In this document: positions 12,364 to 26,945 of the stretch, one piece after another | Position numbering within the stretch: position 1 is the stretch's first letter | How the letters are laid out: each line of letters starts with the position of its first letter | NCBI GenBank assembly: GCA_017998135.1 | Contig: JAGODS010000001.1 | Coordinates: 1 to 46,657 of the forward strand | Source of the DNA: Bacteroidales bacterium | Lineage (GTDB): Bacteria; Bacteroidota; Bacteroidia; Bacteroidales; JAGODS01 | Reading direction: 5' to 3' | Length of the DNA: 46,657 bases | Made by a program: the position numbers and the translations under genes | Notes under the pieces: generated by a model | The model's input: the letters and a program-made list of their open reading frames with translations, nothing else | What the model was told of the DNA's origin: nothing | Database searches by the model: none

Positions 12364-12413
12364 TACACAATTATTTTTGTATTATATGTTCAAAGGAGAA
12401 TTAAAAATAATGT

Positions 12414-12926: not shown

Positions 12927-12977
12927 AATAAATATTTAATGATTTATTTTGATGCAAAAATAGTAATTTTTATTTAT

Positions 12978-14192
12978 TTATTGTATGCTTATCTTGTATG
13001 TTTTTATTAAATTGTTGGCAGTAAATCTGATAATATATAACCCGGGATTAAGTAAAGTGGTTGGTATTTTTAAATTATAAGAACCCTTAGATTTATTCTC
13101 ATTTTTAAGCAAACAGATAGTTCGTCCTGAAACATCGCTAATACTAATATTAATAATTGCATTTTCATTAATAAAATAGGTTAAATTGATTTCAGAAGAA
13201 GCGGGATTTGGAAAGGCGTTCAGATAAATTTTGTCTGAAGATGTATTATTATCTACTGAAGCAGGATTATATATTTCTGCAATAGCGGCTGCAGTTGCAG
13301 TTACAGATTGTGTTATTTTTACAGTCTGTTCTTTATTATTGGCTGATTTATCAATAAGATCATTGGCAGAATGATGATGGGGCGACATGTGATTTGTTCC
13401 GAACATAGAGTATAAGCCTTCAGAAGGCATAATTGCTTTATATCCGCTTTTCCAGAAGGCTGCCATATCCGAAGAGGCGCCATAAGGCATTGGGACATTT
13501 TTTACTGTAAAACCAGGTATATACATTGCAGTATAACCCGCATATAGCTTGCGAAAGGGAACGGAATTGCTGTCGAGATAAACATCAGAGTTGATAGGGT
13601 CGCCGGGATATAAATAGGAAATAGCATCCATAGCCATTACACCGATTATTTTATCCCCTTTTTTCTTAGCTTCTGATGCATAAGCCGTACTTCCTAAAAT
13701 TCCCTGCTCTTCTCCTGAAAAACAAATAAGTTTTATAGTTCTTTTAAAATCATAATTTGCTAAAACTCTACCGGCTTCCATTGTAGCGACTGTTCCGCTT
13801 CCATTATCATCGGCTCCCGGAGCGCTTTTGGCATACACATCATAATGTGCTCCAATGATTACTGATGTATCCTGACTTATTTTCCCATATTTAATAGCTA
13901 TTACATTTGGAATGTGTTTTGAGTTATATGAATGTAAATAAACTGTATCATAGCCAAGTCTTTCAAAATATTTTTTAAGATAATTTGAAGATACAATCGC
14001 GTCTGTGGATAATGAATATCTTTCAATGCTTTGAAGATAAGCGAGATTTTTCCATAAGGTATCAATATTAACCTTATCGACGATTTTTTGGATAGTTTGG
14101 TCATAAGGATGAAGAGATTGGGTAAAAACCTTTGAATTACTTGTAAATAATAGTATATTTATAACTAATAGTAACAATAAATAACGTTTCAT
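12978..14192 (-). CDS. M28-family aminopeptidase with T9SS type-A C-terminal sorting domain
   Basis: 404 aa with a signal peptide. M28 metal-ligand motifs are GAHYDV, GADDNGSG, FSGEEQGILGS and HHSANDL. The last ~85 aa (IYLNAFPNPASSEINLTY...GLYIIRFTANNLIKTYKISIQ) are a typical Por/T9SS C-terminal domain. Confidence 0.85.
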   Translation of the reverse strand: MKRYLLLLLVINILLFTSNSKVFTQSLHPYDQTIQKIVDKVNIDTLWKNLAYLQSIERYSLSTDAIVSSNYLKKYFERLGYDTVYLHSYNSKHIPNVIAIKYGKISQDTSVIIGAHYDVYAKSAPGADDNGSGTVATMEAGRVLANYDFKRTIKLICFSGEEQGILGSTAYASEAKKKGDKIIGVMAMDAISYLYPGDPINSDVYLDSNSVPFRKLYAGYTAMYIPGFTVKNVPMPYGASSDMAAFWKSGYKAIMPSEGLYSMFGTNHMSPHHHSANDLIDKSANNKEQTVKITQSVTATAAAIAEIYNPASVDNNTSSDKIYLNAFPNPASSEINLTYFINENAIINISISDVSGRTICLLKNENKSKGSYNLKIPTTLLNPGLYIIRFTANNLIKTYKISIQ

Positions 14193-14273
14193 AATTTGAA
14201 GGATTAATTTTTAAATTAGGTTTACAAAAGTAAATATTTTTTAATAAGGAATATATATATATAATGATATTAT

Positions 14274-14472
14274 CCAAAAAACCCCGCAGGGATGAAAGGA
14301 TGGTAAAAAATCTTTATAATAATATTTTCCAAAAAACCCCGCAGAGGGTGAAAGGATGGTAAAAAATCTATATAATAATATTTTCTAAAAAACCCCGTAG
14401 GGGTGAAAGGATGGTAGGAAATATATATAATGAAAATTTCCAAAAAACCCCGCAGGGGTGAAAGGATGGTAG
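14274..14472 (-). repeat. Tandem array 1: four copies of the 33-nt core TACCATCCTTTCACCCCTGCGGGGTTTTTTGG (read on the minus strand), period 55-56 bp
   Basis: On the plus strand the cores start at 14274, 14329, 14385 and 14440 (CCAAAAAACCCCGCAGGGGTGAAAGGATGGTA). The inter-core AT-rich segments are near-identical to each other (AAAAATCTTTATAATAATATTTT and AAAAATCTATATAATAATATTTT). Confidence 0.85.
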
Positions 14473-14567
14473 CGAAAAAATGGCAGATTATTTTCTTCTG
14501 AAAAAATTATATTATTTTTGTAAAATTATTCAAAATAAATTCTTTTAATAATTACTGGATAATAATA

Positions 14568-15113
14568 ATGGAATCTAAACTGGAAAAAATATTAACAGGC
14601 AACTATAAAGCAGAATTGATTTTATACTTAAAGCAACAGCCCGAAGCCTTTGAAGAAGCTATCCTGTTAGCCCTTTCGGATAAAAAGCCCTATTCGTGGC
14701 GAGCAGCCTGGATATTATGGAGCAGTATGGATTATAACGATAAACGCATACAGTCTTATGTTCAAAAAATAATAGAAATACTGCCATCAAAAACTGATAA
14801 CATAAAACGGGAACTAATGATGATATTGCAACGTATGGAAATTGATGAAGATCTGGAAGGAAAACTATTTGACATTTGTTTGAATATATGGGAACAGACA
14901 GATAAACAAGCCTCAGTCAGACATAATGCCTTCAGACTGATAGTTAAAATAGCAAAAAAATATCCGGAATTATTAAAAGAAATAATATTCCTTACTGAAT
15001 CGCAATATATAGAGAACCTGTCAAACGGAGTTAAACGAGCGGTTTTAAAATTACTTGCAAATATTCAAACCGACCACTCGCCTGTTCTCCCCAAAAAACT
15101 TAAGGTGAGCTAA
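14568..15113 (+). CDS. Hypothetical all-helical (HEAT/ARM-like) protein
   Basis: 181-aa ORF with helical-repeat character (SWRAAWILW, RHNAFRLIVKIAKKYPELL). No catalytic motif was recognised. Confidence 0.5.
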   Translation: MESKLEKILTGNYKAELILYLKQQPEAFEEAILLALSDKKPYSWRAAWILWSSMDYNDKRIQSYVQKIIEILPSKTDNIKRELMMILQRMEIDEDLEGKLFDICLNIWEQTDKQASVRHNAFRLIVKIAKKYPELLKEIIFLTESQYIENLSNGVKRAVLKLLANIQTDHSPVLPKKLKVS

Positions 15114-15232
15114 AACCCTCAACTCGCCTTTTTCCCTTATTCTGCTAAGAAATTGATAAATACATATTAATAAACCCTGAAAGGGCAATAAAAATTATAT
15201 CTATGATGTAACTCTAAAAAAGTATTTAAAAT

Positions 15233-15259
15233 TTGACAAAGCGTGGACGCTTCGCCTAA
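15233..15259. repeat. R1 hairpin family copy (complementary orientation)
   Basis: TTGACAAAGCG-TGGA-CGCTTCGCCTAA. The reverse complement matches the copy at 12337 apart from the loop and one arm base. Confidence 0.7.
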
Positions 15260-15303
15260 TGGTTAATGTGAGAAAACTATCTATTCCCCTATCAAAAGAG
15301 ATT

Positions 15304-15384
15304 AGCGGGTATTAGGTAGCGGGTATTGAATAATCAAAGGATAAAAAAATATTAAATAATTTTAGACTTTTTATCCTATGCACG
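15304..15384. repeat. Heptamer-repeat module (GGGTATT type) followed by R7 module
   Basis: AGCGGGTATTAGGTAGCGGGTATTGAATAAT, then GGATAAAAAAATATTAAATAATTTTAGACTTTTTATCCTATGCACG. Confidence 0.65.
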
Positions 15385-15407
15385 TTTTTAAATTTATATT
15401 TTATATA

Positions 15408-15430
15408 TTCATAATCTATTGATTATAAAT
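15408..15430. repeat. AT-rich palindromic module R9 (ATAATCTATTGATTATAAAT)
   Basis: TTCATAATCTATTGATTATAAAT. A second copy lies at 40334..40356. The core ATAATC-TATT-GATTAT is palindromic. Confidence 0.6.
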
Positions 15431-15620
15431 GTTCATATAAAACATTAATAAAAAAAATTATTCGCAATTTTGGACTTATATACAAACATTAATGATATTT
15501 TAATCTCATTTTTTCACTTTACTTATTAAAAATTTTGCCCAATTCTTTTTTATACTTAAAAAAAAATTATTTTTTTTATCATTTAACTTATTGATTTAAT
15601 AAAAGTAAACAGAATAATTT

Positions 15621-15654
15621 TTGTGAAAAAGATAACATTGTGAAAAAAATAACA
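15621..15654 (+). promoter_or_regulatory. Tandem 17-bp direct repeat upstream of the hydrogenase operon
   Basis: TTGTGAAAAAGATAACA followed immediately by TTGTGAAAAAAATAACA. Each unit begins with the Rex-type half-site TTGTGAA. The repeat lies about 100-135 bp upstream of the hydC ATG. Confidence 0.3.
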
Positions 15655-15685
15655 AAAAAAATATACCAGATATTAAAATAAGATA

Positions 15686-15693
15686 TATTTTTG
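15686..15693 (+). promoter_or_regulatory. Candidate -7 promoter box for the hydrogenase operon
   Basis: TATTTTTG matches the Bacteroidota TAnnTTTG consensus and lies 63 nt upstream of the ATG at 15756. No clear -33 TTTG was seen. Confidence 0.3.
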
Positions 15694-15703
15694 CACCCGA
15701 AAA

Positions 15704-15738
15704 CTGTTAAAAAAATAACAGTGTTATTTTGTTCACAA
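15704..15738 (+). promoter_or_regulatory. Two adjacent Rex-operator-like inverted repeats in the hydC leader
   Basis: Box A is CTGTTAAAAAAATAACAG (15704..15721; the perfect 7-bp arms ACTGTTA / TAACAGT span 15703..15722). Box B is GTGTTATTTTGTTCACAA (15721..15738, with an exact TTCACAA right half-site). Both resemble TTGT(G/T)AA-N4-TTCACAA. Confidence 0.35.
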
Positions 15739-15755
15739 ATATAAATTAAGATATT

Positions 15756-16226
15756 ATGACGGAAATAATAGAAAAAATATTAGAAAATTATCCTGATGCC
15801 AAAAGGGACAGCTTAATACCCCTACTTCAGGATGTTCAGGATAAATTGGGTTACATCTCTGAAGAATCAGTAGTAATTGTCGGCAAACATCTGAATCTGC
15901 CGACAAGTAAGATTTTTGGGGTCGCTACCTTCTATAACCAGTTCAGATTTGAACCTAAAGGCAAATATCATATACAGGTATGCAGGGGAACTGCCTGTCA
16001 CGTGTTAGGTTCATCAACAGTATTACAGGAGCTTGAAAAACAATTAAAACTAAAAGCCGGTCAAACTTCTAAAGATAAACTTTTTAGTTTAGAAATTGTT
16101 GCTTGTATTGGCGCCTGTGGTTTAGCTCCAGTTATTACACTTAATGGCGAATTTATTGCCAAAGTGGATTCTCAAAAGATTCAAGATTTAGTTAAAAACA
16201 TTAAAGAGCAGGAGATACAAAAATGA
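15756..16226 (+). CDS. hydC: [FeFe]-hydrogenase NuoE-like [2Fe-2S] subunit (HydC/HndA type)
   Basis: 156 aa. The thioredoxin-like ferredoxin pattern CRGTACHV...CIGACGLAP is typical of the NuoE/24-kDa family. The stop overlaps the next start (ATGA at 16223). Confidence 0.85.
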   Translation: MTEIIEKILENYPDAKRDSLIPLLQDVQDKLGYISEESVVIVGKHLNLPTSKIFGVATFYNQFRFEPKGKYHIQVCRGTACHVLGSSTVLQELEKQLKLKAGQTSKDKLFSLEIVACIGACGLAPVITLNGEFIAKVDSQKIQDLVKNIKEQEIQK

Positions 16227-18151
16227 GTTCAAAAGAAATAATTATCAATTTTTTAAATTGCAATATAGATGAAAATAATGCAGAACTAAAACAGCTTAGT
16301 TCTTCTTTACTCAGAGAAAAAATAGAAAGACCTGCAATCTTTATAGGTGCAGGAACTTGTGGACTTGGCGCTGGTGCTGATAAAACACTCGCTGAGGTTG
16401 AAAAATATCTGCAAACTAAAAATATTAATGCTGACGTTTATCAGGTAGGTTGTATTGGACTTTGTGCTGCTGAACCTATTATGGACATTCAATTACCCGG
16501 GTATACAAGAATTTCATATAAACATATATACTATGAAAAAGTAAATGCTTTGCTTGATAAGGTCTTCTCTCTAGATCCTCCTACAGAAGATCTTATCGGG
16601 CAGTTTACTGACAATAGTAACAGAAGCTGGGAAAATATACCTGAATTTAATGAACATCCTTTCTTTAAACCTCAAAGAAGAATAGTATTAAAAAATTGCG
16701 GAATAATAAATCCAACAAGTATTGATGAATATATTATAAGAAAGGGTTATAAAGCTTACCTTAAGGCTATTAAAACTACAACTCCTGAAGAAGTTTGTAA
16801 CATAATAGAACTTAGCGGCTTAAGAGGCAGAGGAGGAGGCGGTTTTCCTACAGGTAAGAAATGGAAAATGGCTAACAAGGCAGTTGCCGGGCAAAAATAT
16901 ATAATATGTAATGCAGACGAAGGGGACCCCGGCGCATTTATGGACAGGGCTGTTATTGAAGGTGACCCACACAGGTTATTGGAAGGTATTGCTATTGGCG
17001 CTTATGCTATTGGCGCTACCAAAGCTTATATATATATACGTGCCGAATATCCACTCGCTATCAAGCGTCTTGTTAATGCTATTAAACAAGCTAAAGAATA
17101 CGGGTTGCTTGGTAAAAATATATCTGGCAGCGGCGTTAATCTGGATATTATTATTAAACAGGGAGCGGGAGCATTTGTATGCGGCGAAGAGACAGCTTTG
17201 ATGCACAGTATTGAAGGGAAAAGAGGGATGCCTCGTCCCCGACCACCTTTCCCTATTGAAAAAGGCTTGTTTGGAAAACCTACTGTTATTAATAATGTAG
17301 AAACCTTTGCTAATGTTTCTGATATTATGTTGAATGGCGCCGAATGGTATAATTCTGTGGGTACAGCAACAAGTAAAGGTACTAAGGTTTTTGCTTTATC
17401 AGGTAAAATAAATCTTACAGGACTGGTTGAAATACCTATGGGAACAACTATAAGAGATATTATTTTTAAGATAGGTGGTGGCATAAAGAATAAAAGGAAA
17501 TTTAAAGCGGTTCAAATTGGAGGTCCTTCAGGCGGTTGCATTACCGAACAAAACCTTAATATTGAAATTGATTACGAATCACTGAAAAAGGTAGGAGCTA
17601 TGATGGGTTCAGGCGGTTTGGTTGTTATGGATGAAGATAATTGTATAGTGGACATAGCAAGATTTTTTATGGATTTTATCCAGAAAGAAAGTTGCGGTAA
17701 ATGTATCCCCTGCAGAGAAGGTACAAGAAGGATGCTTGAAATATTAGAAGGCTTAACAAGGAAACCGAATAGTAGTAATCCAAATGAAGCATTAGAAAGA
17801 TTTAAAGGAGTTACTAATATAGAAAACCTTGCCAAAGTAATAAAAGACACCTCTCTTTGCGGATTAGGTCAAACAGCTCCAAACCCAATTCTTTCAACTC
17901 TAAAATGGTTCAGGGAAGAATTTGAAGAACATTTATTTGAAAGAAAATGCAGGGCTAATGTGTGCAAAGATTTAAGAATTTTCTCCATAGATGTTGACAA
18001 ATGCACTGGCTGCACAGTTTGTTCTAAAAAATGCCCTGTTAATGCTATTATTGGTTCTAAACAAAAAGCGCATTTTATTGTTGAAGATAAATGTATAGGC
18101 TGCGGCAATTGTCTGGAAGTATGCAAATTTAATGCAGTCTTTATTAAATAA
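16223..18151 (+). CDS. hydB: [FeFe]-hydrogenase NuoF-like NAD(P)H/FMN-binding subunit (HydB/HndC type)
   Basis: 642 aa. It has an N-terminal extra [2Fe-2S]-type domain (GTCGLGAG...CIGLCAAEP) and the FMN/NADH motifs GRGGGGFPTGKKW, NADEGDPGAF and ESCGKCIPCREG. The C-terminus carries 2x[4Fe-4S] motifs, CTGCTVCSKKCP and CIGCGNCLEVC. Confidence 0.9.
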   Translation: MSSKEIIINFLNCNIDENNAELKQLSSSLLREKIERPAIFIGAGTCGLGAGADKTLAEVEKYLQTKNINADVYQVGCIGLCAAEPIMDIQLPGYTRISYKHIYYEKVNALLDKVFSLDPPTEDLIGQFTDNSNRSWENIPEFNEHPFFKPQRRIVLKNCGIINPTSIDEYIIRKGYKAYLKAIKTTTPEEVCNIIELSGLRGRGGGGFPTGKKWKMANKAVAGQKYIICNADEGDPGAFMDRAVIEGDPHRLLEGIAIGAYAIGATKAYIYIRAEYPLAIKRLVNAIKQAKEYGLLGKNISGSGVNLDIIIKQGAGAFVCGEETALMHSIEGKRGMPRPRPPFPIEKGLFGKPTVINNVETFANVSDIMLNGAEWYNSVGTATSKGTKVFALSGKINLTGLVEIPMGTTIRDIIFKIGGGIKNKRKFKAVQIGGPSGGCITEQNLNIEIDYESLKKVGAMMGSGGLVVMDEDNCIVDIARFFMDFIQKESCGKCIPCREGTRRMLEILEGLTRKPNSSNPNEALERFKGVTNIENLAKVIKDTSLCGLGQTAPNPILSTLKWFREEFEEHLFERKCRANVCKDLRIFSIDVDKCTGCTVCSKKCPVNAIIGSKQKAHFIVEDKCIGCGNCLEVCKFNAVFIK

Positions 18152-18170
18152 TTTATTAAATAATCAAATT

Positions 18171-19889
18171 ATGAACATAGAAGTTAATAATAAAAAGATA
18201 AAAGCAAAAAAAGGCGAAACTATTTTATCAGCCTTAAATCGCAATGGAATAGAAGTTCCTACCTTATGCCATATGAAAAATTTCTTTCCTTCAGGTGCCT
18301 GTCGTATGTGTGTAGTTGAAGTTAAAGGCAAAGGCAATCTAATTACATCCTGTTCCTACCCTGTTGAAGATGGAATGATAATACAAACACATTCGCCCAG
18401 AGTTGTAAATGCCCGGAAGACTATAGTAGAACTTCTCTTATCCAATCATCCTGACGATTGTCTGTATTGTGAGCGTAACGGTAATTGCGAACTACAGAGT
18501 TTATCTGAAAATCTAAATGTAAGAGAACGCCGAATAACGGGTGTGAAAAATCGCTATAAAATGGACAGGTCAAGCCCGAGCATAGTAAGAGACCCCGCCA
18601 AATGTATTCTTTGCGGCAGATGTGTCAGAGTTTGCGAAGAGGTTGAAAATGTATCAGCTATTGAATTTGTTGGCAGGGGTAATAAAACTGTTATTAATAC
18701 AGCATACAATAAAGGTTTAAACCTTTCAAGTTGTGTCAATTGCGGACAATGTATCTTAGTTTGCCCAACAGGCGCTTTACATGAAAGAAACAATCTGTCA
18801 GATGTGCAGGAAGCTCTTTCAAATAAAGAAAAACACGTTATTGTTCAGTATGCACCGGCTATTTCAATATCTCTGGCTGAAGAGTTTAACCTAAAACCCG
18901 GTAAAGATATTAATGGCATTATGAATGCAGCATTAAGAAAAGTAGGATTTGACAGAGTCTTTGACGTTACCTTCGGAGCCGATTTAACTATTATGGAAGA
19001 ATCTGCCGAGCTTATACACAGAGTACAAAATGGCGAAACTTTACCTATGTTTACAAGTTGCTGCCCGGGCTGGATTAAATATTTAGAAGAGTTCAGACCT
19101 GAATTTATACCAAATCTTTCGTCCTGCAAATCTCCTCAACAGATGACAGGCGCTATGATTAAAAGCTATTATGCTGAAATAGAAAATATAGCTCCTGAAA
19201 ATATTTACACTGTTTCTATTATGCCCTGCACAGCTAAGAAATTTGAATCTCAAAGAGAAGAAATGATAAGACAGGGGATTAATGATATTGACTGCGTACT
19301 GACTACCAGAGAACTCGGCAGATTGATAAAACTATACGGAATAGATATTAATAAATTAGAGCCCGAACTGGCTGATTCTCCTTTAGGTACAAGAAGTTCG
19401 GCAGGGAAGATCTTTGGCGCTTCAGGCGGTGTGATGGAAGCTGCTATCAGAACAGCCTATTTCAAACTCACAGGCAAAGAGATGACACAATTTAAAATAG
19501 ATGAACTGCGCGGACTTGATGGTATTAAAGAAGCTAAAATTGAGATAGGTAATATTACTCTTGGAGTGGCAGTAGTCAGTGGTTTGCAAAATGCTAAAAC
19601 CATACTAGACCAGATTGCAGCAGGAAGGAAAGATTTACATTTCATAGAATTTATGGCTTGTCCGGGGGGTTGTATTAACGGGGGCGGTCAACATATAGGA
19701 GCTGATGAAGCAGCTATTAAAGCAAGGATGAGATCACTCTACGACATTGACGATAAAGACTCTATCAAAGTTTCTCATAAAAACCCGCAGATAGTTGAAA
19801 TATATGAAAAATACCTTGAAAAACCTTTAAGTCATAAATCTCACAAACTTTTACATACTCATTATAATAAAAGAAACGTTCTATTATAA
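18171..19889 (+). CDS. hydA: [FeFe]-hydrogenase catalytic subunit (NuoG-like N-terminus plus H-cluster domain)
   Basis: ORF 18132..19889. The likely start is Met14 (18171), just after the hydB stop. An N-terminal 2Fe-2S and several 4Fe-4S Cys clusters are present. The canonical H-cluster motifs are FTSCCPGW, MPCTAKKFE and EFMACPGGCINGGGQ. Confidence 0.92.
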   Translation: MNIEVNNKKIKAKKGETILSALNRNGIEVPTLCHMKNFFPSGACRMCVVEVKGKGNLITSCSYPVEDGMIIQTHSPRVVNARKTIVELLLSNHPDDCLYCERNGNCELQSLSENLNVRERRITGVKNRYKMDRSSPSIVRDPAKCILCGRCVRVCEEVENVSAIEFVGRGNKTVINTAYNKGLNLSSCVNCGQCILVCPTGALHERNNLSDVQEALSNKEKHVIVQYAPAISISLAEEFNLKPGKDINGIMNAALRKVGFDRVFDVTFGADLTIMEESAELIHRVQNGETLPMFTSCCPGWIKYLEEFRPEFIPNLSSCKSPQQMTGAMIKSYYAEIENIAPENIYTVSIMPCTAKKFESQREEMIRQGINDIDCVLTTRELGRLIKLYGIDINKLEPELADSPLGTRSSAGKIFGASGGVMEAAIRTAYFKLTGKEMTQFKIDELRGLDGIKEAKIEIGNITLGVAVVSGLQNAKTILDQIAAGRKDLHFIEFMACPGGCINGGGQHIGADEAAIKARMRSLYDIDDKDSIKVSHKNPQIVEIYEKYLEKPLSHKSHKLLHTHYNKRNVLL

Positions 19890-19924
19890 TTAAAGAATAC
19901 AAATCTTTAATTTAAAAATTCATT

Positions 19925-21931
19925 ATGGGGCATTCAGGAAAAACTAAATTGGTAACTACTTTAAAAGACCGCTGCAGGATGTGCTATACCTGTGTTAGGG
20001 AATGTCCTGTTAAAGCTATTCGTATTATAAACGGTCAGGCTGAGATAATAGATGAGCGTTGTATAGGTTGCGGCAATTGTGTTAAAGTATGCAGCCAGGA
20101 TGCTAAAGTATTTTTAAGACATACCAGCGAAGTAGAAGCACTCTTAAAAACAGGAGACAAAGTAGCAGCTATCTTAGCACCCAGTTTTCCCTCTGAGTTT
20201 GAAGAAATAAAAGATTATCATAAAGTAATAGGAATGATAAGAAAACTTGGGTTTCATTATGTTGTGGAAGTTGCTTTTGGAGCAGATGTTATAGCAAAAG
20301 CATATAAAAAACTATTACTTAAAGGAGATAACAAACATTATATATCATCTGATTGTCCCGGTATTGTATTTTATATAGAACAATATTACCCTGAATTAGT
20401 CGGTAACCTTGCACCTATTGCTTCACCAATGGTCGCAACAACAAGAATAGTTAGAAAAAAATATGGAGAAGACCTTAAAGTAGTATTTATTGGACCCTGC
20501 ATTGTAAAAAAAGCGGAGTCCAATGAATTAAACGAAGTAATCACCTTCAGGGAATTACGCGAAATGTTTAATAAACATAAAATCAATGCTAATAATTCCG
20601 AACCCTCGGAATTTGATGAACCTATCGGAGGGAGAGGAGCAAAGTTTCCACTAAGCCGAGGCTTACTACAAAATATGAATCTTAACGAAGATACTTACCA
20701 GGGTAATATTATAGTAGCAGATGGTAGGATAGATTTCAGGGATGCTATTAAAGAATTTAAAAATGATCTTGACCAATCTTCGCATTTTGAGCTATTATGT
20801 TGCGAAGGCTGTATTATGGGACCTGGTATGTCGCCAAATGGCAAAAGATATGCCCGGCAGTTAAAACTTAATAACTATGTACGCAAAAAAAACGCAAAGC
20901 TTAACATTGAAAAATGGAAAAAAGAAGTAGATAGTTTTGCTGAATTGGATGTATCTCAACATTTTATGCCAAACGATAGACGTATAGGAAGTCCAGGTGA
21001 AGAAGAAATAAGAGCAGTGCTGCAGGATATGGGAAAATTTACTTACCGCGACCATCTCAACTGCGGAGCCTGCGGCTACGACACCTGCATTGAACATAGT
21101 ATAGCTATCATACAGGGCTTGGCAGAAACCGAGATGTGCCTACCATTCACTATTGAGAAACTACATAATTATATTAAACAATTAAATATATCTAAAGAAA
21201 AATTAAGCTCAGTCAGGGCAGCTCTGATGCAATCCGAGAAACTGGCTCATATGGGACAATTATCAGCGGGCATAGCACACGAGTTAAATAATCCACTTGG
21301 TATTATAACAATGTATAGCAATATATTGCTTGACGAATGCGCTGAGGACTCACAGTTAAGAAAAGACCTTAACCTGATTTCCGAACAGGCGAACAGGTGT
21401 AAAAATATAGTAGGCGGATTACTAAACTTTGCAAGAAAAAGCCAGGTTAATTATACAGAAATTAATGTTATATCGCTAATCAATCATTGCATCAATTCAG
21501 TAATAATACCAGAAAATGTAAAAATTAATATTATAACAGACCTAACAGATACAAACATAAATGTAGATAAAGAGCAGATGACGCAAGTGTTTACCAACCT
21601 TATAAAAAATGCAATTGAAGCTATGCCAGAGGGAGGTAATATAACTATAAGGATAGAGCAAAAAGATAATGATTTTATATTCTCTGTAAAAGATAGCGGA
21701 ATCGGAATTAATAAAGAACATTTGGATAAAAATATATTTGAACCCTTCTTTACAACGAAAAAAGTAGGTAAAGGCACAGGTTTAGGTCTAGCATTGATTT
21801 ACGGAATAATAAAGATGCACAAAGGAACTATAACAGTAGAATCAAATGCCGACCCTGCAGAAGGACCAACAGGGACAACTTTTAAAATTACAATACCTAA
21901 AAAAATTATAGAAATCACTAAAATAAAATAA
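19925..21931 (+). CDS. hydS: Sensory [FeFe]-hydrogenase-like protein fused to a histidine kinase (group C, HydS-type)
   Basis: 668 aa. It has an N-terminal 2x[4Fe-4S] ferredoxin region (CRMCYTCVRECP, CIGCGNCVKVC). The H-domain aligns without gaps to HydA but has altered motifs: ISSDCPGI, GPCIVKKAE and ELLCCEGCIMGPGM. An extra Cys cluster CGACGYDTC follows. HisKA H-box SAGIAHELNNPLG, N-box NLIKNAIEAM, G1 VKDSGIGI and G2 GTGLGLALI complete the kinase. Confidence 0.85.
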   Translation: MGHSGKTKLVTTLKDRCRMCYTCVRECPVKAIRIINGQAEIIDERCIGCGNCVKVCSQDAKVFLRHTSEVEALLKTGDKVAAILAPSFPSEFEEIKDYHKVIGMIRKLGFHYVVEVAFGADVIAKAYKKLLLKGDNKHYISSDCPGIVFYIEQYYPELVGNLAPIASPMVATTRIVRKKYGEDLKVVFIGPCIVKKAESNELNEVITFRELREMFNKHKINANNSEPSEFDEPIGGRGAKFPLSRGLLQNMNLNEDTYQGNIIVADGRIDFRDAIKEFKNDLDQSSHFELLCCEGCIMGPGMSPNGKRYARQLKLNNYVRKKNAKLNIEKWKKEVDSFAELDVSQHFMPNDRRIGSPGEEEIRAVLQDMGKFTYRDHLNCGACGYDTCIEHSIAIIQGLAETEMCLPFTIEKLHNYIKQLNISKEKLSSVRAALMQSEKLAHMGQLSAGIAHELNNPLGIITMYSNILLDECAEDSQLRKDLNLISEQANRCKNIVGGLLNFARKSQVNYTEINVISLINHCINSVIIPENVKINIITDLTDTNINVDKEQMTQVFTNLIKNAIEAMPEGGNITIRIEQKDNDFIFSVKDSGIGINKEHLDKNIFEPFFTTKKVGKGTGLGLALIYGIIKMHKGTITVESNADPAEGPTGTTFKITIPKKIIEITKIK

Positions 21932-21942
21932 AGGAGTTAATT

Positions 21943-22338
21943 ATGCAAACCGAACAAAAAACAATACTATTAGTAGATGACGACGTGGACTATTTATACC
22001 AGACACGTTTGAAAGTAGAAAGCTTTGGCTTTAAAGTTATAACCGCAGACACTCAGAAAGAAGCTGAAGAACTGATTGAAAACATTAGACCAGATTTAGC
22101 AATTCTTGACTTAATGATGGAAAATGATGACAGTGGCTTTATTCTTTCGTACAAAATTAAGAAAAAATATCCGGATGTACCTATTATTATAGCAACTGCA
22201 GCAACAGCCGAAACAGGAATCAATTTTGATATCAATGAAGATGAAAACAAACACTGGATAAAAGCTGATACATATCTTGATAAAGGTATCAGAACCGACC
22301 AGCTTCAACGAGAAATCAATAGAATGCTCAAATTATAA
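21943..22338 (+). CDS. Stand-alone response-regulator receiver domain protein
   Basis: 131 aa. It has the acidic pocket LLVDDDVD, the phospho-acceptor context LAILDLMME, and conserved T/K positions (IIATAA, YLDKG). No output domain is present. Confidence 0.85.
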   Translation: MQTEQKTILLVDDDVDYLYQTRLKVESFGFKVITADTQKEAEELIENIRPDLAILDLMMENDDSGFILSYKIKKKYPDVPIIIATAATAETGINFDINEDENKHWIKADTYLDKGIRTDQLQREINRMLKL

Positions 22339-22340
22339 TA

Positions 22341-22479
22341 AGTAGCGGGTATTGGGTACTGGGTATCTGGTATCAATTATAGAATGATAAATACTAATTA
22401 TTATATATTAAATTTTAAATGATTAGTTATGAAATTAAAATACCAAATACTCAATACTCACTACTCGCTACCAAATACT
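22341..22479 (+). repeat. Inverted pair of heptamer tandem repeats (GGGTATT family) flanking an AT-rich ~65-nt spacer
   Basis: The left arm is AGTAGC GGGTATT GGGTACT GGGTATC TGGTAT (22341..22374). The right arm is ATACCAA ATACTCA ATACTCA CTACTCG CTACC (22440..22472). The arms are about 26/33 complementary, and 4 of the 7 mismatches are G-T, so they would be G-U pairs only in a plus-strand RNA. Confidence 0.7.
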
Positions 22480-22494
22480 AAAAATTAAAAATAA

Positions 22495-23625
22495 ATGGTT
22501 AATACACCTTTAAAAATACTTGTGGTAGATGATGAGCCGGGTATATGTTCCGGAGTGATTCGTATTCTACATAACTTTAAGGTAAGTTATCCTTTTATGG
22601 AAGAAGATATAACGTTTACCATAGAAGAAGCCGGTACAGGGAGGGAGGCTATTGCGAAAATAGATAACCTAAAACCGGATATAGCTCTTTTAGACAATAA
22701 ATTGCCGGATATTGAAGGAGTTGAAGTGCTTGATTATATCAAAAAACAGCAATTGGATATAATTGTAGTGATGATAACTTCTTTTGCTTCGCTTGAACTT
22801 GCCGTTAAAGCAACAAAAAACGGAGCTTATGATTTTATCCCCAAACCTTTCACTTCTCAGGATTTGCGCTCTTCAATAGAAAATATATCTAAACATATTT
22901 TTCTAAAAAGGATGACAGCCAGGTTGAATGAATCAGCCAAACACGTAAGATTTCAATTCTTATCAGTTTTATCACACGAGCTTAAAACGCCATTAAATGC
23001 AATTGAAGGCTATCTTAATATGATGTCAGAACAACAATTTGGCGATAACATTAGCTCTTATAAAGAGATTATAGAACGTTCGCTTTTAAGATTGAAAGGT
23101 ATGAGAGGGCTGATAATGGATATGCTTGATTTGACTAAAGTGGAATCTGGAAAACCAACACAAAAGATAATAGAACTTGATTTGACGACAATAGCCCAAA
23201 GAGCAATTGATACTATTAAACCTATTGCCATTCAGAAAGATGTAGATGTTTACTTAAATACCAAAGAACAATTTATAATCAATGCCGACGAAGAAGATAT
23301 AGAAATTATTTTTAATAACCTATTATCAAATGCTGTTAAATATAATAAAAAGGGAGGGAGGGTTGATTGTTACATACAAAAAGAAGCTAACAATATTAAA
23401 ATAACAGTTTCCGATACAGGCATTGGAATGACAGAAGAAGAAATGCAACATTTGTTTAAAGATTTCTCACGAATTAAAAATCCTAAAACAAAAAACATTA
23501 CTGGCAGCGGCTTGGGCTTATCTATTGTAAAAAAAATAACAGAATTATATAAAGGCAATGTAAGCGTTAAAAGTATTCCCGAAAAAGGAACTAGCTTTTC
23601 TGTGATTTTGCCTACAAACATTTAA
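22495..23625 (+). CDS. Hybrid receiver-histidine kinase (N-terminal REC, then HisKA and HATPase_c)
   Basis: 376 aa. REC motifs are ILVVDDEPG, ALLDNKLPDIEG and FIPKPF. The H-box is LSHELKTPLNAI, the N-box NLLSNAVKYN, G1 VSDTGIGM and G2 GSGLGLSIV. There is no TM segment and no DNA-binding domain. Confidence 0.85.
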   Translation: MVNTPLKILVVDDEPGICSGVIRILHNFKVSYPFMEEDITFTIEEAGTGREAIAKIDNLKPDIALLDNKLPDIEGVEVLDYIKKQQLDIIVVMITSFASLELAVKATKNGAYDFIPKPFTSQDLRSSIENISKHIFLKRMTARLNESAKHVRFQFLSVLSHELKTPLNAIEGYLNMMSEQQFGDNISSYKEIIERSLLRLKGMRGLIMDMLDLTKVESGKPTQKIIELDLTTIAQRAIDTIKPIAIQKDVDVYLNTKEQFIINADEEDIEIIFNNLLSNAVKYNKKGGRVDCYIQKEANNIKITVSDTGIGMTEEEMQHLFKDFSRIKNPKTKNITGSGLGLSIVKKITELYKGNVSVKSIPEKGTSFSVILPTNI

Positions 23626-23663
23626 CCCGATTATTTTATGAATTTTTTCAAAAAATACATCTC

Positions 23664-23726
23664 CAGCAGATTTCGCAGATTTTCGCTGATATTAATTTTT
23701 TCTGCGTTTATCTGCGTTATCTGCGG
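23664..23726. repeat. Imperfect inverted repeat built from CGCAGA/TCTGCG words
   Basis: CAGCAGATTTCGCAGATTTTCGCTGAT ... TCTGCGTTTATCTGCGTTATCTGCGG. Three word pairs are complementary and separated by T/A-rich mismatched spacers. Confidence 0.6.
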
Positions 23727-23784
23727 GAGCTATTTGTTTCTTTGCGGTTAAGAAAAATTAGATTAAATATCGAAAAAAAACAAT

Positions 23785-24399
23785 ATGAAAAATCTTCCAC
23801 ATAAAACCGTAGAACGTCTTAGCCGATACCGGAGGTTGCTTCAGGAACTTGAAAAAGAAGGAATACACTATATCTATTCACACGAGATAGCCAAAATGTT
23901 ACATATCACACCGGTTCAGGTCAGAAGAGACTTGATGATAATTGGTTACTCCGGCACACTTAAAAAAGGTTACGACATCAGGGAACTGATAGATTTAATT
24001 ACTAAAATAATAGATACAGATGAAGGTTTTAAAGTTGCTGTGATTGGATTGGGAAACTTAGGCAGGGCAATGATAGGATATATCACGGGTAAACAAACCA
24101 AAATGTCAATAGTTGCAGCTTTTGATACCAATCCGGATAAAGTCAATAAAATGTATGCAGGCATACCCTGCTATCATATTGATAAATTAGGCGAAATAAT
24201 TAAAAGCGATAAAATTAGTATCGCTATTATTACAGTTCCTTCCGAAGAAACAAAAAAAGTAGCTGAAAAACTTATCTTATCAGGTATTAAAGGAATACTT
24301 AACTATACTTCCACTCCAATAAATGTAACCCCTGATATATACCTTGAAGAATATGATATGATTAGCTCACTTGAAAAAGTAGCTTATTTTGTTAAATAA
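23785..24399 (+). CDS. rex: Redox-sensing transcriptional repressor Rex
   Basis: 204 aa. It has an N-terminal winged-helix region with RLSRYRRLL and a Rossmann NAD(H) motif VAVIGLGNLGRAM. Length and architecture are typical of Rex. Confidence 0.85.
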   Translation: MKNLPHKTVERLSRYRRLLQELEKEGIHYIYSHEIAKMLHITPVQVRRDLMIIGYSGTLKKGYDIRELIDLITKIIDTDEGFKVAVIGLGNLGRAMIGYITGKQTKMSIVAAFDTNPDKVNKMYAGIPCYHIDKLGEIIKSDKISIAIITVPSEETKKVAEKLILSGIKGILNYTSTPINVTPDIYLEEYDMISSLEKVAYFVK

Positions 24400-24400
24400 T

Positions 24401-25336
24401 ATGAATATTTTTAGAAGTTTTGAGGAATTAGGCAAAGGGATTAACATTAGAAAACCTGTTGTTACAACCGGTTCTTTTGACGGTGTCCATATTGGACATA
24501 AAGCCATATTAAGACGAATGAGGATATTGGCTGATGATATTGGCGGCGAGACTGCATTAATAACTTTTCATCCACATCCCCGTAAAATTCTTTATCCCGA
24601 TTCTGTTGGAAAAGATTTGTTTCTCATTAATTCACAAAGAGAAAAAATAGATTTGCTTCGTAAAGTTGGATTAGATAACCTATTTATTATCCCTTTCACA
24701 TTAGAGTTTTCTCGTACTACGTCAGCGGTTTTTGTTAAGAAAATATTAATAGAAAAAATTAATTCTAAAATAATAATAGTTGGGTTTAACCACCATTTCG
24801 GATATAACAGAGAAGGTGATTATAAATATTTATATGAACTGAGTAGGGAAAACGCTTTTGCAGTTGAAGAAATACCTGAACAGGATCTGGAAAACGAAGC
24901 TGTCAGCTCGACCAAAATCAGAAAAGCCTTGTTGGAAGGAGACATACAAAAAGCTAATGCATATCTTGATCATCATTACATTATTTATAGCAAACTTTTT
25001 AGAGGTAGTCGTCTTTTGCAGGATTTAAATCTAAATACATATAATCTTTTTATTGAAGAAGATATTAAACTCATTCCGCCTGCTGGAGTGTATGCTGTTA
25101 ATTGTAATATTGATAAGCTAAATCATAAAGCCCTTCTCAATATTAAAATTGATGAAAATAATAAAAAAAAGTATCTTGAAATATATCTGATTGATGCTAT
25201 TGAAGACCATAGCAATAAACAGGTTGTAATATCCTTTGCCAAAAGATTGAGAGACGAGTATGCTTTTAGCAACAAAGATGAATTATTGAGGCGCTTGAAT
25301 GCTGATATTGAAATAGTTAATAATATGATATTTTAA
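24401..25336 (+). CDS. ribF: Bifunctional riboflavin kinase / FAD synthetase
   Basis: ORF 24389..25336. The ATG at 24401 follows the rex stop. The FAD-synthetase motifs GSFDGVHIGH and SSTKIRKAL are followed by a C-terminal riboflavin-kinase-like half. Confidence 0.85.
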   Translation: MNIFRSFEELGKGINIRKPVVTTGSFDGVHIGHKAILRRMRILADDIGGETALITFHPHPRKILYPDSVGKDLFLINSQREKIDLLRKVGLDNLFIIPFTLEFSRTTSAVFVKKILIEKINSKIIIVGFNHHFGYNREGDYKYLYELSRENAFAVEEIPEQDLENEAVSSTKIRKALLEGDIQKANAYLDHHYIIYSKLFRGSRLLQDLNLNTYNLFIEEDIKLIPPAGVYAVNCNIDKLNHKALLNIKIDENNKKKYLEIYLIDAIEDHSNKQVVISFAKRLRDEYAFSNKDELLRRLNADIEIVNNMIF

Positions 25337-26115
25337 TGACTGAAGAAAATCAGATAAAAGTAAGCTTTCTCGGTACAGGAACTTCTACGGGTGTTCCTGT
25401 TATTGCCTGTAATTGTCCTGCTTGTAAATCAAATGACTTTAGAGATACAAGACTTAGAACTTCTGCTTTAATTCAGGTTAATAATAAAAAATTCGTAATT
25501 GACTGCGGTCCTGATTTTCGTCAGCAGATGCTCAAAGCCAATGTGGATGATATTAACGCTGTTCTGCTTACTCACGAACACAGAGACCATACATCCGGAC
25601 TTGACGACCTGAGAGCTTTTAATTATATATTGAATAAACCTATTGAACTATACGCAACTGAGAAAGTTATCAATTCTATTAAAACCCAGTTCCCTTACAT
25701 TTTTGAAGAAAAAAAATATATAGGCGCTTTAAGGATTAATATACATTTAATTGATAAAAATCCTTTTAATATAGAAGGAGTTACATTTATTCCTATCGAA
25801 GTTAAACATAAAGATATGAGCGTATTAGGTTTTAGAATTGGCGACTTTACCTATATAACCGATGCCAGTTTTATCAGTGAAGATGAAAAGAATAAAATAA
25901 AAGGCTCAAAAGTAGTTGTTATAAATGCTTTAAGAAAATCTAAACATATATCCCATTTTAGCATTTCTGAAGCTGTTGATTTTCTTAATGAAATTAAACC
26001 GGAAAGAGGCTATCTGACTCATTTAAGTCATTTCGCAGGTCTCCATAAAGAAATAGAAGAAGTTACACCTCCTTTCATTCACCCCGCAAACGACGGACTG
26101 ACGATCTTTATCTGA
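25336..26115 (+). CDS. MBL-fold metallo-hydrolase
   Basis: 259 aa. The metal motif LLTHEHRDHTSGLDDL (HxHxDH) plus later His/Asp ligands are present. The start overlaps the ribF stop (TAATG). Confidence 0.75.
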   Translation: MTEENQIKVSFLGTGTSTGVPVIACNCPACKSNDFRDTRLRTSALIQVNNKKFVIDCGPDFRQQMLKANVDDINAVLLTHEHRDHTSGLDDLRAFNYILNKPIELYATEKVINSIKTQFPYIFEEKKYIGALRINIHLIDKNPFNIEGVTFIPIEVKHKDMSVLGFRIGDFTYITDASFISEDEKNKIKGSKVVVINALRKSKHISHFSISEAVDFLNEIKPERGYLTHLSHFAGLHKEIEEVTPPFIHPANDGLTIFI

Positions 26116-26222
26116 TAAGTAAGGGTATAATGTTTAATGTCCATCCCCAAAGTCTCTTTTTCCTTCTTTTTTGCGTTACTTTGCGACTGTTTTACTTGCG
26201 ACGAAATAGATTTTCAATACCG

Positions 26223-26290
26223 TTAGACTAAGCGTCCTCGCTTCGTCTAATTTACCTGCTACCCAATACTCAATACCCAATACCCAATAC
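26223..26290. repeat. R1 hairpin copy followed by a heptamer-repeat module
   Basis: TTAGACTAAGCG-TCCT-CGCTTCGTCTAA (26223..26250), then GCTACCCAATACTCAATACCCAATACCCAATAC (26258..26290), which is the reverse complement of the GGGTATT family. Confidence 0.7.
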
Positions 26291-26306
26291 AGAAAATGCA
26301 CATTAA

Positions 26307-26945
26307 TCACACATCAACGAGGAAGCAGAAGATAGTTTTAGGTCCGTGGGCACCGAGTATAAGAGTTTTTTCAATATCTGCCGTTCTGCTTGGTCCTGTA
26401 ATGATTGAAACAAATGAAGGAAAGTTGCTTGAATATTTCTTTTTTAATTTTTCAAGAGCATCTTTAAGATCACGAACAACTTGTTTGGTAGAAGCAATAA
26501 CAATATGAGCAGGCGGAAATCCTGCCATTTTTCTTCCCGGCATTTGTCTGGAAGAAACAATAATACTTCCGAGTCTGGCAACAAGATATTCACAACCTGT
26601 AATACCTGCATCTATTGAATTAAATTCTGATTCGTCCTTACTAACCAAAATATTAGCTTTATTAAGAAATTCTATTATTTTACTGTCTTTACAAAAGACA
26701 TTTTTCCAATTATTCTCACTTATGATAGAGTTAAGATTAACAGCTAATTCTGAATAATCCTGGCAAAAAATAAACTTCCCTCCCACTTTTATAAATTCCT
26801 GAGCAAAAACTATTTCATCAGGTTCAGTTGACAAATTATATACCGAAGAATCAAAATCAATATTCTGATATGGATTTTCAGTTTTATTGATTAAGGCATT
26901 CCTGATGTTTTTCAGTATTTTCTCTTTTGATGTGCTTTCTTTCAT
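26307..26945 (-). CDS. LUD-domain protein (LutC/YkgG family)
   Basis: 212 aa. GITGCEYLVARLGSIIV and ITGPSRTADIEKTLILGAHGP match the LUD/DUF162 signature as I recall it. Confidence 0.7.
   Translation of the reverse strand: MKESTSKEKILKNIRNALINKTENPYQNIDFDSSVYNLSTEPDEIVFAQEFIKVGGKFIFCQDYSELAVNLNSIISENNWKNVFCKDSKIIEFLNKANILVSKDESEFNSIDAGITGCEYLVARLGSIIVSSRQMPGRKMAGFPPAHIVIASTKQVVRDLKDALEKLKKKYSSNFPSFVSIITGPSRTADIEKTLILGAHGPKTIFCFLVDV

What the first reader, a model, noticed from the sequence alone, without database searches (positions are those of the whole stretch)
19925..21931. Hydrogenase-like sensor fused directly to a histidine kinase, immediately downstream of the catalytic hydABC genes
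The N-terminal 330 aa align without gaps to the H-cluster domain of the adjacent HydA and carry two ferredoxin-type 4Fe-4S motifs. An extra CGACGYDTC cysteine cluster follows, and a complete HisKA/HATPase_c kinase ends the protein. This is the architecture proposed for H2-sensing group C [FeFe]-hydrogenases. It sits 35 bp after hydA, so a single transcript would encode both the H2-producing or H2-consuming enzyme and its putative H2 sensor. To my knowledge such systems are essentially uncharacterised in Bacteroidota.
Basis: partly seen in the sequence, partly recalled or inferred. Interest (0 to 1): 0.6.

Follow-up and report, generated by a model that had tools for sequence, protein, structure and literature searches.

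The report
Histidine-kinase-fused sensory [FeFe] hydrogenase
The gene encodes a hydrogenase-like sensor fused to a histidine kinase, placed right after a bifurcating hydrogenase operon; this is a catalogued but biochemically untested type of putative H2 sensor that is common in Bacteroidales.

Summary
ORF 19925-21931 (+) encodes 668 aa with this order of parts: two [4Fe-4S] ferredoxin motifs, an [FeFe]-hydrogenase H-domain, a Cx2Cx4Cx16C motif, then HisKA and HATPase_c. It starts 35 bp after hydA of a hydCBA operon. One detail is wrong: it aligns to HydA at 29% identity with 16% gaps, not "without gaps".

All four H-cluster cysteines, Lys358 and Glu361 (CpI numbering) are kept. Met353 is Gly, Met497 is Leu, and the proton-relay Cys299 is Asp.

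In a tree the sensor domain separates from group A and group B enzymes. It sits in a clade that holds all the histidine-kinase-fused relatives sampled.

The type is not new. HydDB (2016) defines "[FeFe] Group C1, histidine kinase-linked (putative)", and a C1 gene near an Hnd hydrogenase was reported in the Bacteroidota isolate Petrimonas mucosa. Relatives of the sensor domain (E <= 1e-110) occur in 171 of 401 sampled genomes of the window's order; about 150 of them are C1-type. The synteny hydCBA-hydS-REC-REC/HK is nearly invariant.

No paper in the searched library reports biochemistry for a kinase-fused member. Sensing of H2 is inferred, not shown.

Added here: Rex boxes upstream of hydC that co-occur with a downstream rex gene; a second PAS/PP2C-type sensor in most related loci but not in this window; and an Asp that is specific to this clade.

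Verdict: a real, ordinary new member of a known kind.

The parts
15621..15655 (+). Two tandem Rex-like operators (TTGTGAAAAAGATAACAT and TTGTGAAAAAAATAACAA), 17 bp apart, at -135 and -118 relative to the hydC start
   Evidence: They match TTGTKAA-N4-TTMACAA with 2 and 1 mismatches. Related loci that carry rex show the same 17-bp tandem spacing.
15721..15738 (+). Third Rex-like box (GTGTTATTTTGTTCACAA) at -35 relative to the hydC start
   Evidence: The function is inferred.
15756..16226 (+). hydC, a NuoE-like [2Fe-2S] subunit of the trimeric hydrogenase
   Evidence: PF01257, E = 1.7e-49. NuoE/HoxE family matches in NCBIfam.
16223..18151 (+). hydB, the NuoF-like FMN/NADH-binding subunit
   Evidence: Complex1_51K, NADH_4Fe-4S and Fer4 domains. 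TIGR01959 scores 473 bits.
18132..19889 (+). hydA, the catalytic group A [FeFe] hydrogenase. It carries TSCCPGW, MPC..K..E and the FMACPGGC motif
   Evidence: NF040763 scores 832.8 bits, above its cut-off of 765. It lies in the group A clade, support 100*.
19925..21931 (+). hydS-HK: a 668-aa soluble sensory hydrogenase fused to a histidine kinase
   Evidence: No transmembrane segment: the highest 19-residue hydropathy is 1.19.
19964..20104 (+). F-domain with two ferredoxin-type [4Fe-4S] motifs (residues 14-60)
   Evidence: All eight Cys are invariant in 50 homologues.
20159..20824 (+). H-domain (residues 79-300). The H-cluster ligands are C144, C192, C293 and C296. K195 and E198 are kept
   Evidence: PF02906, E = 4.4e-46. 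Site table. Foldseek matches to CbA5H, HydA and CpI at E of about 1e-19.
20351..20353 (+). Codon for Asp143, at the position of the proton-relay Cys299 of CpI
   Evidence: SSDCP or TSDCP in all 120 closest homologues. Invariant in alignment A2. No Asp at this position in the 80 more distant group C-like representatives tabulated (38 HK-fused, 42 not).
21062..21139 (+). C-terminal Cx2Cx4Cx16C motif (C380, C383, C388, C405), a presumed extra [4Fe-4S] site
   Evidence: PF04060. Motif count. It is described as the hallmark of groups C and D in PMC8163306.
21251..21904 (+). HisKA (H-box IAHELNNP, His452 at 21278-21280) and HATPase_c (N, G1 and G2 boxes)
   Evidence: The boxes are invariant in 50 homologues. 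The best solved matches are ZraS and KinB. Foldseek TM-score of 0.76, normalised to the target, against ZraS.
21943..22338 (+). Stand-alone receiver protein (131 aa, REC domain only; D12-D14, D56)
   Evidence: PF00072. Sequence. Conserved directly after hydS in almost all of the 80 loci.
22495..23625 (+). REC-HisKA-HATPase hybrid protein (376 aa; D67, H171)
   Evidence: Conserved in synteny.
23785..24399 (+). rex, the NADH/NAD+-sensing repressor
   Evidence: Put_DNA-bind_N plus CoA_binding domains. Present downstream in 37 of 53 assessable loci, where its presence goes with Rex boxes upstream of hydC.

Best explanation

Proposed mechanism, with the status of each step:
1. The N-terminal 410 residues bind two ferredoxin-type [4Fe-4S] clusters, an H-cluster and a fourth [4Fe-4S] cluster at Cx2Cx4Cx16C. 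This is inferred from conserved ligands, not measured.
2. H2 reacts at the H-cluster. Asp143 probably serves as proton acceptor in place of the usual cysteine. The resulting change in redox state or conformation passes through the Cx2Cx4Cx16C domain and a helix of about 35 residues into the DHp helix. This changes autophosphorylation of His452. This step is inferred, and the route of coupling is unknown.
3. The phosphoryl group then goes to the two conserved downstream receivers: the 131-aa REC protein and/or the REC domain of the REC-HK hybrid. This is inferred from synteny. The final output protein is not encoded in the cluster.
4. The likely physiological role is to match expression or activity of the adjacent NADH/ferredoxin-linked HydABC hydrogenase to the H2 level. 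It would act alongside Rex, which reports NADH/NAD+ and has candidate operators upstream of hydC.
For: - Domain order and intact motifs.
- All four H-cluster Cys, plus Lys358, Pro354 and Glu361 equivalents, are kept. Met353 is Gly, as in the other group C-like and group B rows tabulated here and in TmHydS (PMC8163306).
- The canonical proton pathway is lost: E279 to A, E282 to K, S319 to A. Cys299 is Asp, the one substitution that keeps 30-80% activity in CpI and HydA1 (PMC6226526).
- In the tree, groups A (100*) and B (94) fall outside. The window protein lies in a 97* Bacteroidales HK clade, which lies in a 100* clade holding all 38 HK-fused representatives.
- The same sensor module is fused in other lineages to sigma54-AAA+/HTH or to PAS. 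This is typical of an input domain.
- The synteny hydCBA-hydS-REC-REC/HK is near-invariant in 80 species-level loci.
- The fold model matches [FeFe] hydrogenases over about 430-460 residues and ZraS over the kinase part.
- hydG and hydE maturase genes are present in the genome.
- The kinase boxes are invariant.
- TmHydS and TamHydS, the nearest studied relatives, bind an H-cluster and behave like sensors (PMC10055695, PMC8163306).
Against: - No experiment exists for any kinase-fused member in the searched library.
- In TamHydS the C-terminal cluster did not change redox state with H2 (PMC13104023). This weakens the simplest relay model.
- No DNA-binding response regulator is encoded in the cluster, and no sigma54 promoter lies upstream of hydC. 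The regulated target is therefore unproven.
- hydF was seen only as a fragment in this 79.6%-complete MAG.
- The AlphaFold model is only moderate (pLDDT 75.6). It is poor exactly at the linker, residues 423-452.
- Co-transcription was not tested.
Confidence: 0.6

Rival explanations
1. It is a redox-pool sensor rather than an H2 sensor. The Fe-S clusters report the reduction state of ferredoxin, or O2/CO. The H-cluster site is empty or plays only a structural part in vivo.
For: - Four Fe-S sites are present. The N-terminal dicluster domain is a typical ferredoxin-type electron entry module.
- The sister PAS/PP2C paralogues in Bacteroidales have lost Lys358 in 9 of 9 cases and the Cys499 ligand in 3 of 9. 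So this lineage can tolerate decay of the H-cluster site.
- The Hydrogenedentota study could hardly find the H-cluster motifs in its 'C1' proteins (PMC11406978).
- hydF was not found intact.
Against: - In the kinase-fused clade every H-cluster ligand, plus K195, E198, P191 and D143, is invariant across 50-120 homologues at about 60% identity. That points to selection on the 2Fe site.
- hydE and hydG are present.
- The gene always sits next to a hydrogenase operon.
Confidence: 0.2
2. It does sense H2, but its target is not hydCBA. The REC and REC-HK relay would feed a distant regulator of fermentation or another cellular process. hydCBA itself would be controlled by Rex alone.
For: - The cluster has no DNA-binding output.
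- Rex boxes lie upstream of hydC and co-occur with rex: 30 of 37 loci with rex have a box, against 3 of 16 without.
- The closest characterised kinases, AtoS and ZraS, pair with NtrC-type regulators. The genome has two sigma54 activators on other contigs.
Against: - Sixteen assessable related loci keep hydCBA-hydS-REC-REC/HK but lack rex, and 13 of these also lack a Rex box. The sensor's link to hydCBA therefore does not depend on Rex.
- Adjacency to hydA is almost universal.
Confidence: 0.12
3. It is an extra catalytic or electron-transfer subunit of the HydABC complex. The kinase domain would be vestigial.
For: It is co-located with hydCBA. Asp at the Cys299 position is compatible with turnover (PMC6226526).
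Against: - The kinase H, N, G1 and G2 boxes are invariant.
- Two receiver proteins are conserved next to it.
- The rest of the proton pathway and both active-site methionines are replaced.
- It scores far below the group A and group B family cut-offs: 103.5 against 405.95, and 170.8 against 450.
Confidence: 0.04

Closest known systems
HydDB [FeFe] Group C1, 'histidine kinase-linked (putative)' (Sondergaard, Pedersen and Greening 2016, PMC5037454). An example was reported in Petrimonas mucosa ING2-E5A (PMC7768429)
   Same: A sensory-type H-domain linked to a histidine kinase. It lies next to a multimeric NADH-linked group A hydrogenase. It occurs in Bacteroidota.
   Different: Nothing essential differs. 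The HydDB classifier itself could not be run here. Published use of the labels C1 and C3 is not consistent with domain content (PMC11406978).
Thermotoga maritima HydS (group C, M2f; PMC10055695)
   Same: F-domain, H-domain and Cx2Cx4Cx16C motif. Met353 is Gly. The Cys299 relay is lost. It is encoded with a hydrogenase operon.
   Different: TmHydS ends in a PAS domain, whereas this protein has HisKA and HATPase directly after the cluster motif with no PAS. TmHydS has Ala at the Cys299 position and Ser at Met497; here they are Asp and Leu.
Thermoanaerobacter mathranii HydS (group D, M2e; PMC8163306, PMC13104023)
   Same: The same three Fe-S modules around the H-domain. Leu at Met497. It is encoded next to a bifurcating hydrogenase, with a separate kinase-like gene nearby.
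   Different: Group D has Ser or Thr at Met353 and no fused signalling domain. Here the position is Gly and a kinase is fused.
Regulatory [NiFe] hydrogenase HoxBC with kinase HoxJ of Ralstonia eutropha ([NiFe] group 2b)
   Same: The logic is the same: a low-activity hydrogenase signals to a histidine kinase that controls hydrogenase genes (established knowledge; PMC5037454, Table 1).
   Different: The metal site and fold are unrelated. The sensor and kinase are separate proteins. The response regulator there binds DNA, and no such regulator is encoded in this cluster.

Membership tests
[FeFe] hydrogenase group C (putative sensory) | H-domain with the four H-cluster cysteine ligands (CpI C300, C355, C499, C503) | tested here: met
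   C144, C192, C293 and C296 align to them and are invariant.
[FeFe] hydrogenase group C (putative sensory) | [quoted passage not shown] | tested here: met
   The definition is taken from PMC8163306.
[FeFe] hydrogenase group C (putative sensory) | The group A proton pathway (C299, E279, E282, S319) is not conserved, and Met353 and Met497 are replaced | tested here: met
   The residues are D143, A126, K129 and A163, with G190 and L291 at the two Met positions. Asp can still carry protons (PMC6226526).
[FeFe] hydrogenase group C (putative sensory) | Phylogenetic separation from groups A and B | tested here: met
   In the IQ-TREE quick tree, group A is 100*, group B is 94 and the C-like clade is 99*. 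No HydDB, TmHydS or TamHydS reference sequences were available to include.
[FeFe] hydrogenase group C (putative sensory) | Binds an H-cluster and responds to H2 | not testable with these tools
   This needs maturation followed by FTIR/EPR and kinase assays.
HydDB subgroup C1 (histidine kinase-linked) | Linked to a histidine kinase | tested here: met
   HisKA and HATPase_c are fused in the same polypeptide.
HydDB subgroup C1 (histidine kinase-linked) | Assigned to C1 by the HydDB k-NN classifier | not tested
   The classifier is not available here. Some kinase-bearing proteins have been called C3 by HydDB best hit (PMC11406978).
[FeFe] hydrogenase group D (M2e) | Ser or Thr at Met353 and no fused PAS or kinase domain | tested here: not met
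   The position is Gly190 and a kinase is fused.
[FeFe] hydrogenase group A (catalytic) | TSCCPxW, MPCxxKxxE and ExMxCxxGC motifs, and a score above the TIGR02512 cut-off | tested here: not met
   The motifs are SSDCPG, GPCIVKKAE and ELLCCEGC. TIGR02512 scores 103.5 bits against a cut-off of 405.95.
[FeFe] hydrogenase group B | Score above the TIGR04105 cut-off, and placement in the group B clade | tested here: not met
   It scores 170.8 bits against a cut-off of 450. It lies outside the group B clade.
HisKA-type two-component sensor kinase | H-box histidine and the N, G1 and G2 ATP-binding boxes | tested here: met
   H452 in IAHELNNP, N558/N562, D590-G592-G594 and G617-G621 are all invariant. 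E = 1e-30 to the ZraS structure.

The most novel reading that the evidence does not exclude
The Bacteroidales kinase-fused clade may be a turnover-coupled H2 sensor. Its invariant Asp at the proton-relay position would keep the H-cluster catalytically competent, unlike TmHydS with Ala. Kinase output would then track the H2/H+ redox poise, not just H2 binding. Together with Rex, the cell would read two of the three couples of the bifurcating HydABC reaction, H2 and NADH/NAD+, at a single operon. The adjacent PAS/PP2C paralogue, which is losing H-cluster residues, would be a decaying or repurposed second channel.
Probability: 0.2. Interest if true: 0.6.

Novelty: new member of a known kind. Interest (0 to 1): 0.35.

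Why it matters
No sensory [FeFe] hydrogenase has yet been shown to transmit an H2 signal. The two studied proteins, TmHydS and TamHydS, have no enzymatic output that can be assayed.

A protein with the sensor fused directly to a histidine kinase, and with its two receiver partners encoded next door, gives a simple read-out: autophosphorylation and phosphotransfer with and without H2. It could settle whether group C enzymes sense H2 at all.

The family is very common in anaerobic Bacteroidales from sediments, digesters and guts. If it works as proposed, it probably shapes how these fermenters adjust H2 production.

This particular gene is one ordinary member among thousands. Its value is as a representative, not as a discovery.

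Tried and rejected
- Sigma-70 promoter and terminator scan of 15000-26400: counts were no higher than in shuffles, so it was uninformative. Bacteroidota promoters are not covered by this scan.
- Sigma54 -24/-12 promoter search: fewer hits than expected by chance, and none upstream of hydC.
- Sequence search of solved structures: only group A hydrogenases and kinase domains were found. No group C or D structure is available to compare with.
- I tried to read Greening et al. 2016 (ISME J) for the group C definitions, but the paper is not held.
- I could not obtain TmHydS, TamHydS or HydDB reference sequences. Tree groups were therefore labelled by domain content and NCBIfam cut-offs instead.
- Membership of groups A, B and D was considered and rejected (see the membership table).
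- The phylum-wide search shows the type is rare outside the anaerobic orders, at 8 of 401 genomes. 'Common in Bacteroidota' would overstate it; 'common in this order' is accurate.
Full report
**1. Observation.**

The ORF at 19925-21931 (+) is open and encodes 668 aa. Pfam finds five parts:
- two ferredoxin-type 4Fe-4S motifs, residues 14-60;
- Fe_hyd_lg_C, residues 79-300 (E = 4.4e-46);
- the small 'FeS' family PF04060, residues 378-407;
- HisKA, residues 443-505;
- HATPase_c, residues 548-660.

No PAS domain is found. The cysteines are C17/20/23/27, C46/49/52/56, C144, C192, C292/293/296 and C380/383/388/405. The last four form Cx2Cx4Cx16C. hydA ends at 19889, so the gap to the ORF is 35 bp.

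Upstream lie hydC (NuoE-like), hydB (NuoF-like) and hydA. hydA scores 832.8 bits on NF040763 'NADH-dependent [FeFe] hydrogenase', above its cut-off of 765.

BLASTP to HydA gives 29% identity and 16% gaps over residues 16-249.

**2. Anatomy of the sensor domain.**

I aligned 112 sequences: the window protein, Bacteroidales orthologues, 80 diverse representatives, ten group A HydA and four group B enzymes. In CpI numbering:
- The H-cluster ligands C300, C355, C499 and C503 correspond to C144, C192, C293 and C296.
- P354, K358 and E361 correspond to P191, K195 and E198.
- Met353 is Gly190 and Met497 is Leu291.
- The proton-pathway residues E279, E282 and S319 are Ala126, Lys129 and Ala163.
- The relay Cys299 is Asp143.

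Loss of the Cys relay, of the pathway residues and of both methionines is what has been described for the putative sensory groups C and D. Gly at Met353 is the TmHydS state, whereas group D has Ser or Thr (PMC8163306).

Asp143 is invariant in the 120 nearest homologues and in the 50-sequence full-length alignment. It is absent from the 38 kinase-fused representatives of other lineages, which carry Pro, Thr, Ala, Ser, Asn, Phe, His or Leu. In CpI and HydA1, Cys-to-Asp is the one substitution at this site that keeps substantial H2-release activity, 30-80% (PMC6226526).

The protein has no hydrophobic segment, with a maximum 19-residue hydropathy of 1.19. It is therefore cytoplasmic.

**3. Fold.**

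An AlphaFold2 model built from 50 homologues has mean pLDDT 75.6. It is high over the H-domain and the ATPase domain, and below 50 in the linker at 423-452.

Foldseek against the PDB matches about 430-460 residues to [FeFe] hydrogenases at E of about 1e-19. The targets include CbA5H, T. kivui HydA, DdH and CpI, including the C299D variant. The C-terminal part matches the ZraS cytoplasmic domain with a TM-score of 0.76, normalised to the target. No group C or D structure appeared in either search.

**4. Phylogenetic placement.**

- 530-600 bits to kinase-fused orthologues;
- 305-409 bits to PAS-type paralogues;
- 88-118 bits to group B enzymes that pass the TIGR04105 cut-off;
- 41-73 bits to HydA.

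In an IQ-TREE 'quick' tree (112 rows, 337 columns), group A is one clade (100*) and group B another (94). The remaining 98 sequences form a clade (99*).

The window protein sits in a Bacteroidales kinase-fused clade (97*). That clade lies inside a 73-row clade (100*) holding all 38 kinase-fused representatives. So it does not cluster with catalytic enzymes.

Two caveats apply. Support is SH-aLRT only. And no HydDB, TmHydS or TamHydS reference sequences could be fetched, so groups are labelled by domain content and NCBIfam cut-offs.

**5. How common it is, and what surrounds it.**

- The large protein collection returned 7251 hits. The best 120 have the same architecture at 59-68% identity and come mostly from Bacteroidales MAGs. 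They are annotated only as 'ATP-binding protein' or '4Fe-4S binding protein'.
- In species-representative genomes, at least 515 loci encode a relative of the sensor domain.
- In a sample of 401 genomes of the window's order, 171 have a match at E <= 1e-110. About 150 of these are at least 50% identical, with an open frame of 660-690 aa.
- Across the phylum sample, only 8 of 401 genomes match. The type belongs to the anaerobic lineages.
- The exhaustive representative search found 961 clusters at E <= 1e-30.

Synteny in the 80 best loci is striking: hydC-hydB-hydA-hydS, then a REC-only protein, then a REC-HisKA-HATPase hybrid, in almost every locus that is long enough. Both receiver proteins in the window have intact acidic pockets and phospho-acceptor residues, and the hybrid has an intact H-box. 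Neither has an output domain.

**6. A second regulatory layer.**

rex follows the hybrid kinase gene in the window, and in 37 of 53 assessable loci.

Upstream of hydC the window has three matches to TTGTKAA-N4-TTMACAA, at 15621, 15638 and 15721. The first two are 17 bp apart. The same tandem 17-bp arrangement recurs at about -85/-65 in related loci.

Boxes occur in 30 of 37 loci that carry rex, against 3 of 16 that do not. The loci are related to each other, so this is descriptive and not a statistical test. The motif resembles the Rex operators known from other phyla (my own knowledge of the Rex literature). Binding is untested.

**7. A paralogous sensor that is missing here.**

In 35 of 53 assessable loci, a divergent gene pair lies upstream of hydC. 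It encodes a 613-649 aa protein with F-domain, H-domain, Cx2Cx4Cx16C and PAS, plus a SpoIIE/PP2C phosphatase. This is the phosphatase-linked arrangement.

In the window this place is taken by an M28 peptidase with a T9SS sorting domain, a ferritin-like gene, a 181-aa ORF and a tandem repeat array.

These PAS-type paralogues are sister to the kinase-fused Bacteroidales clade (support 93). They have lost Lys358 in 9 of 9 cases and Cys499 in 3 of 9. The kinase-fused proteins have kept everything.

Other relatives of the sensor module are fused to sigma54-AAA+ and HTH domains: seven of the seven long non-kinase representatives I scanned. One module joined to several kinds of output domain is what one expects of a signal-input domain.

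**8. Mechanism.**

Shown by sequence: intact ligand sets for four Fe-S sites and the H-cluster, an intact kinase, intact receivers, and a conserved operon-like arrangement. The genome also has hydG and hydE above their family cut-offs. hydF appears only as a fragment in this 79.6%-complete MAG.

Inferred: H2 reacts at the H-cluster. The signal reaches the DHp helix through the Cx2Cx4Cx16C domain and the connecting helix. His452 phosphorylation changes. The phosphoryl group passes to the REC protein and/or the REC-HK hybrid. Hydrogenase expression then follows.

The weakest step is the coupling. In TamHydS the C-terminal cluster did not respond to H2 (PMC13104023). The output is also unknown: the cluster encodes no DNA-binding regulator, and no sigma54 promoter lies upstream of hydC.

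**9. Comparison and novelty.**

[quoted passage not shown] A C1 gene close to the Hnd hydrogenase genes was reported in the Bacteroidota isolate Petrimonas mucosa (PMC7768429). Hydrogenedentota genomes carry C1 and C3 genes next to group A3 hydrogenases (PMC11406978).

Full-text searches found no biochemical study of a kinase-fused member.

The finding is therefore real and correctly interpreted, but it is a new member of a known, catalogued kind. I checked the first two here.

**10. Verdict.**

- Observation: confirmed, with one wrong detail.
- Interpretation: supported.
- Novelty: low.
- Interest: moderate-low (0.35). The main reason for interest is that a fused kinase makes the open question 'do group C [FeFe] hydrogenases sense H2?' directly assayable.

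Noticed in passing
L015:582-3653 (-), and the equivalent place in 35 of 53 related loci; absent from window 12000-15750: Most related Bacteroidales loci carry a second, divergently transcribed sensory hydrogenase (F-domain, H-domain, Cx2Cx4Cx16C, PAS) plus a SpoIIE/PP2C phosphatase upstream of hydC. One hydABC operon is then flanked by two different putative H2 sensors. These PAS-type paralogues lack Lys358 (9 of 9), and 3 of 9 lack the Cys499 ligand.
   Followed up: partly
P0167, P0190, P0155, P0177, P0165, P0188, P0194 (representatives): The same sensory hydrogenase module is fused directly to a sigma54-interaction AAA+ domain, in six of the seven with an HTH domain also detected. These look like one-component H2-responsive enhancer-binding proteins. 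I did not check whether HydDB or the literature names this architecture.
   Followed up: partly
window 15621-15738: Three Rex-like boxes lie upstream of hydC. Across related loci, the presence of boxes goes with the presence of a rex gene downstream of the sensor cluster (30 of 37 against 3 of 16).
   Followed up: yes
window 14270-14475: Four tandem copies of a unit of about 57-60 bp, with the core AAAAACCCCGCAGGGGTGAAAGGATGGTA, lie in the gap between the M28 peptidase gene and the 181-aa ORF.
   Followed up: no
G000 contig C369, L002:1300-3093 (-): A second group A HydA (597 aa; NF040763, 895 bits) reads TSCSPGW in motif L1. That puts Ser at the position of the cluster-ligating Cys300. It could be a real variant or a single-base error in the MAG.
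   Followed up: no
window 14568-15113 (+): A 181-aa ORF with only a weak HEAT/adaptin-like match (E = 1.9e-4, below the family cut-off) lies between the repeat array and the 640-bp hydC leader. It has no counterpart in the related loci.
   Followed up: no
window 12978-14192 (-): An M28 peptidase with a Por_Secre_tail (T9SS C-terminal sorting) domain. This fits a Bacteroidota origin for the window.
   Followed up: no
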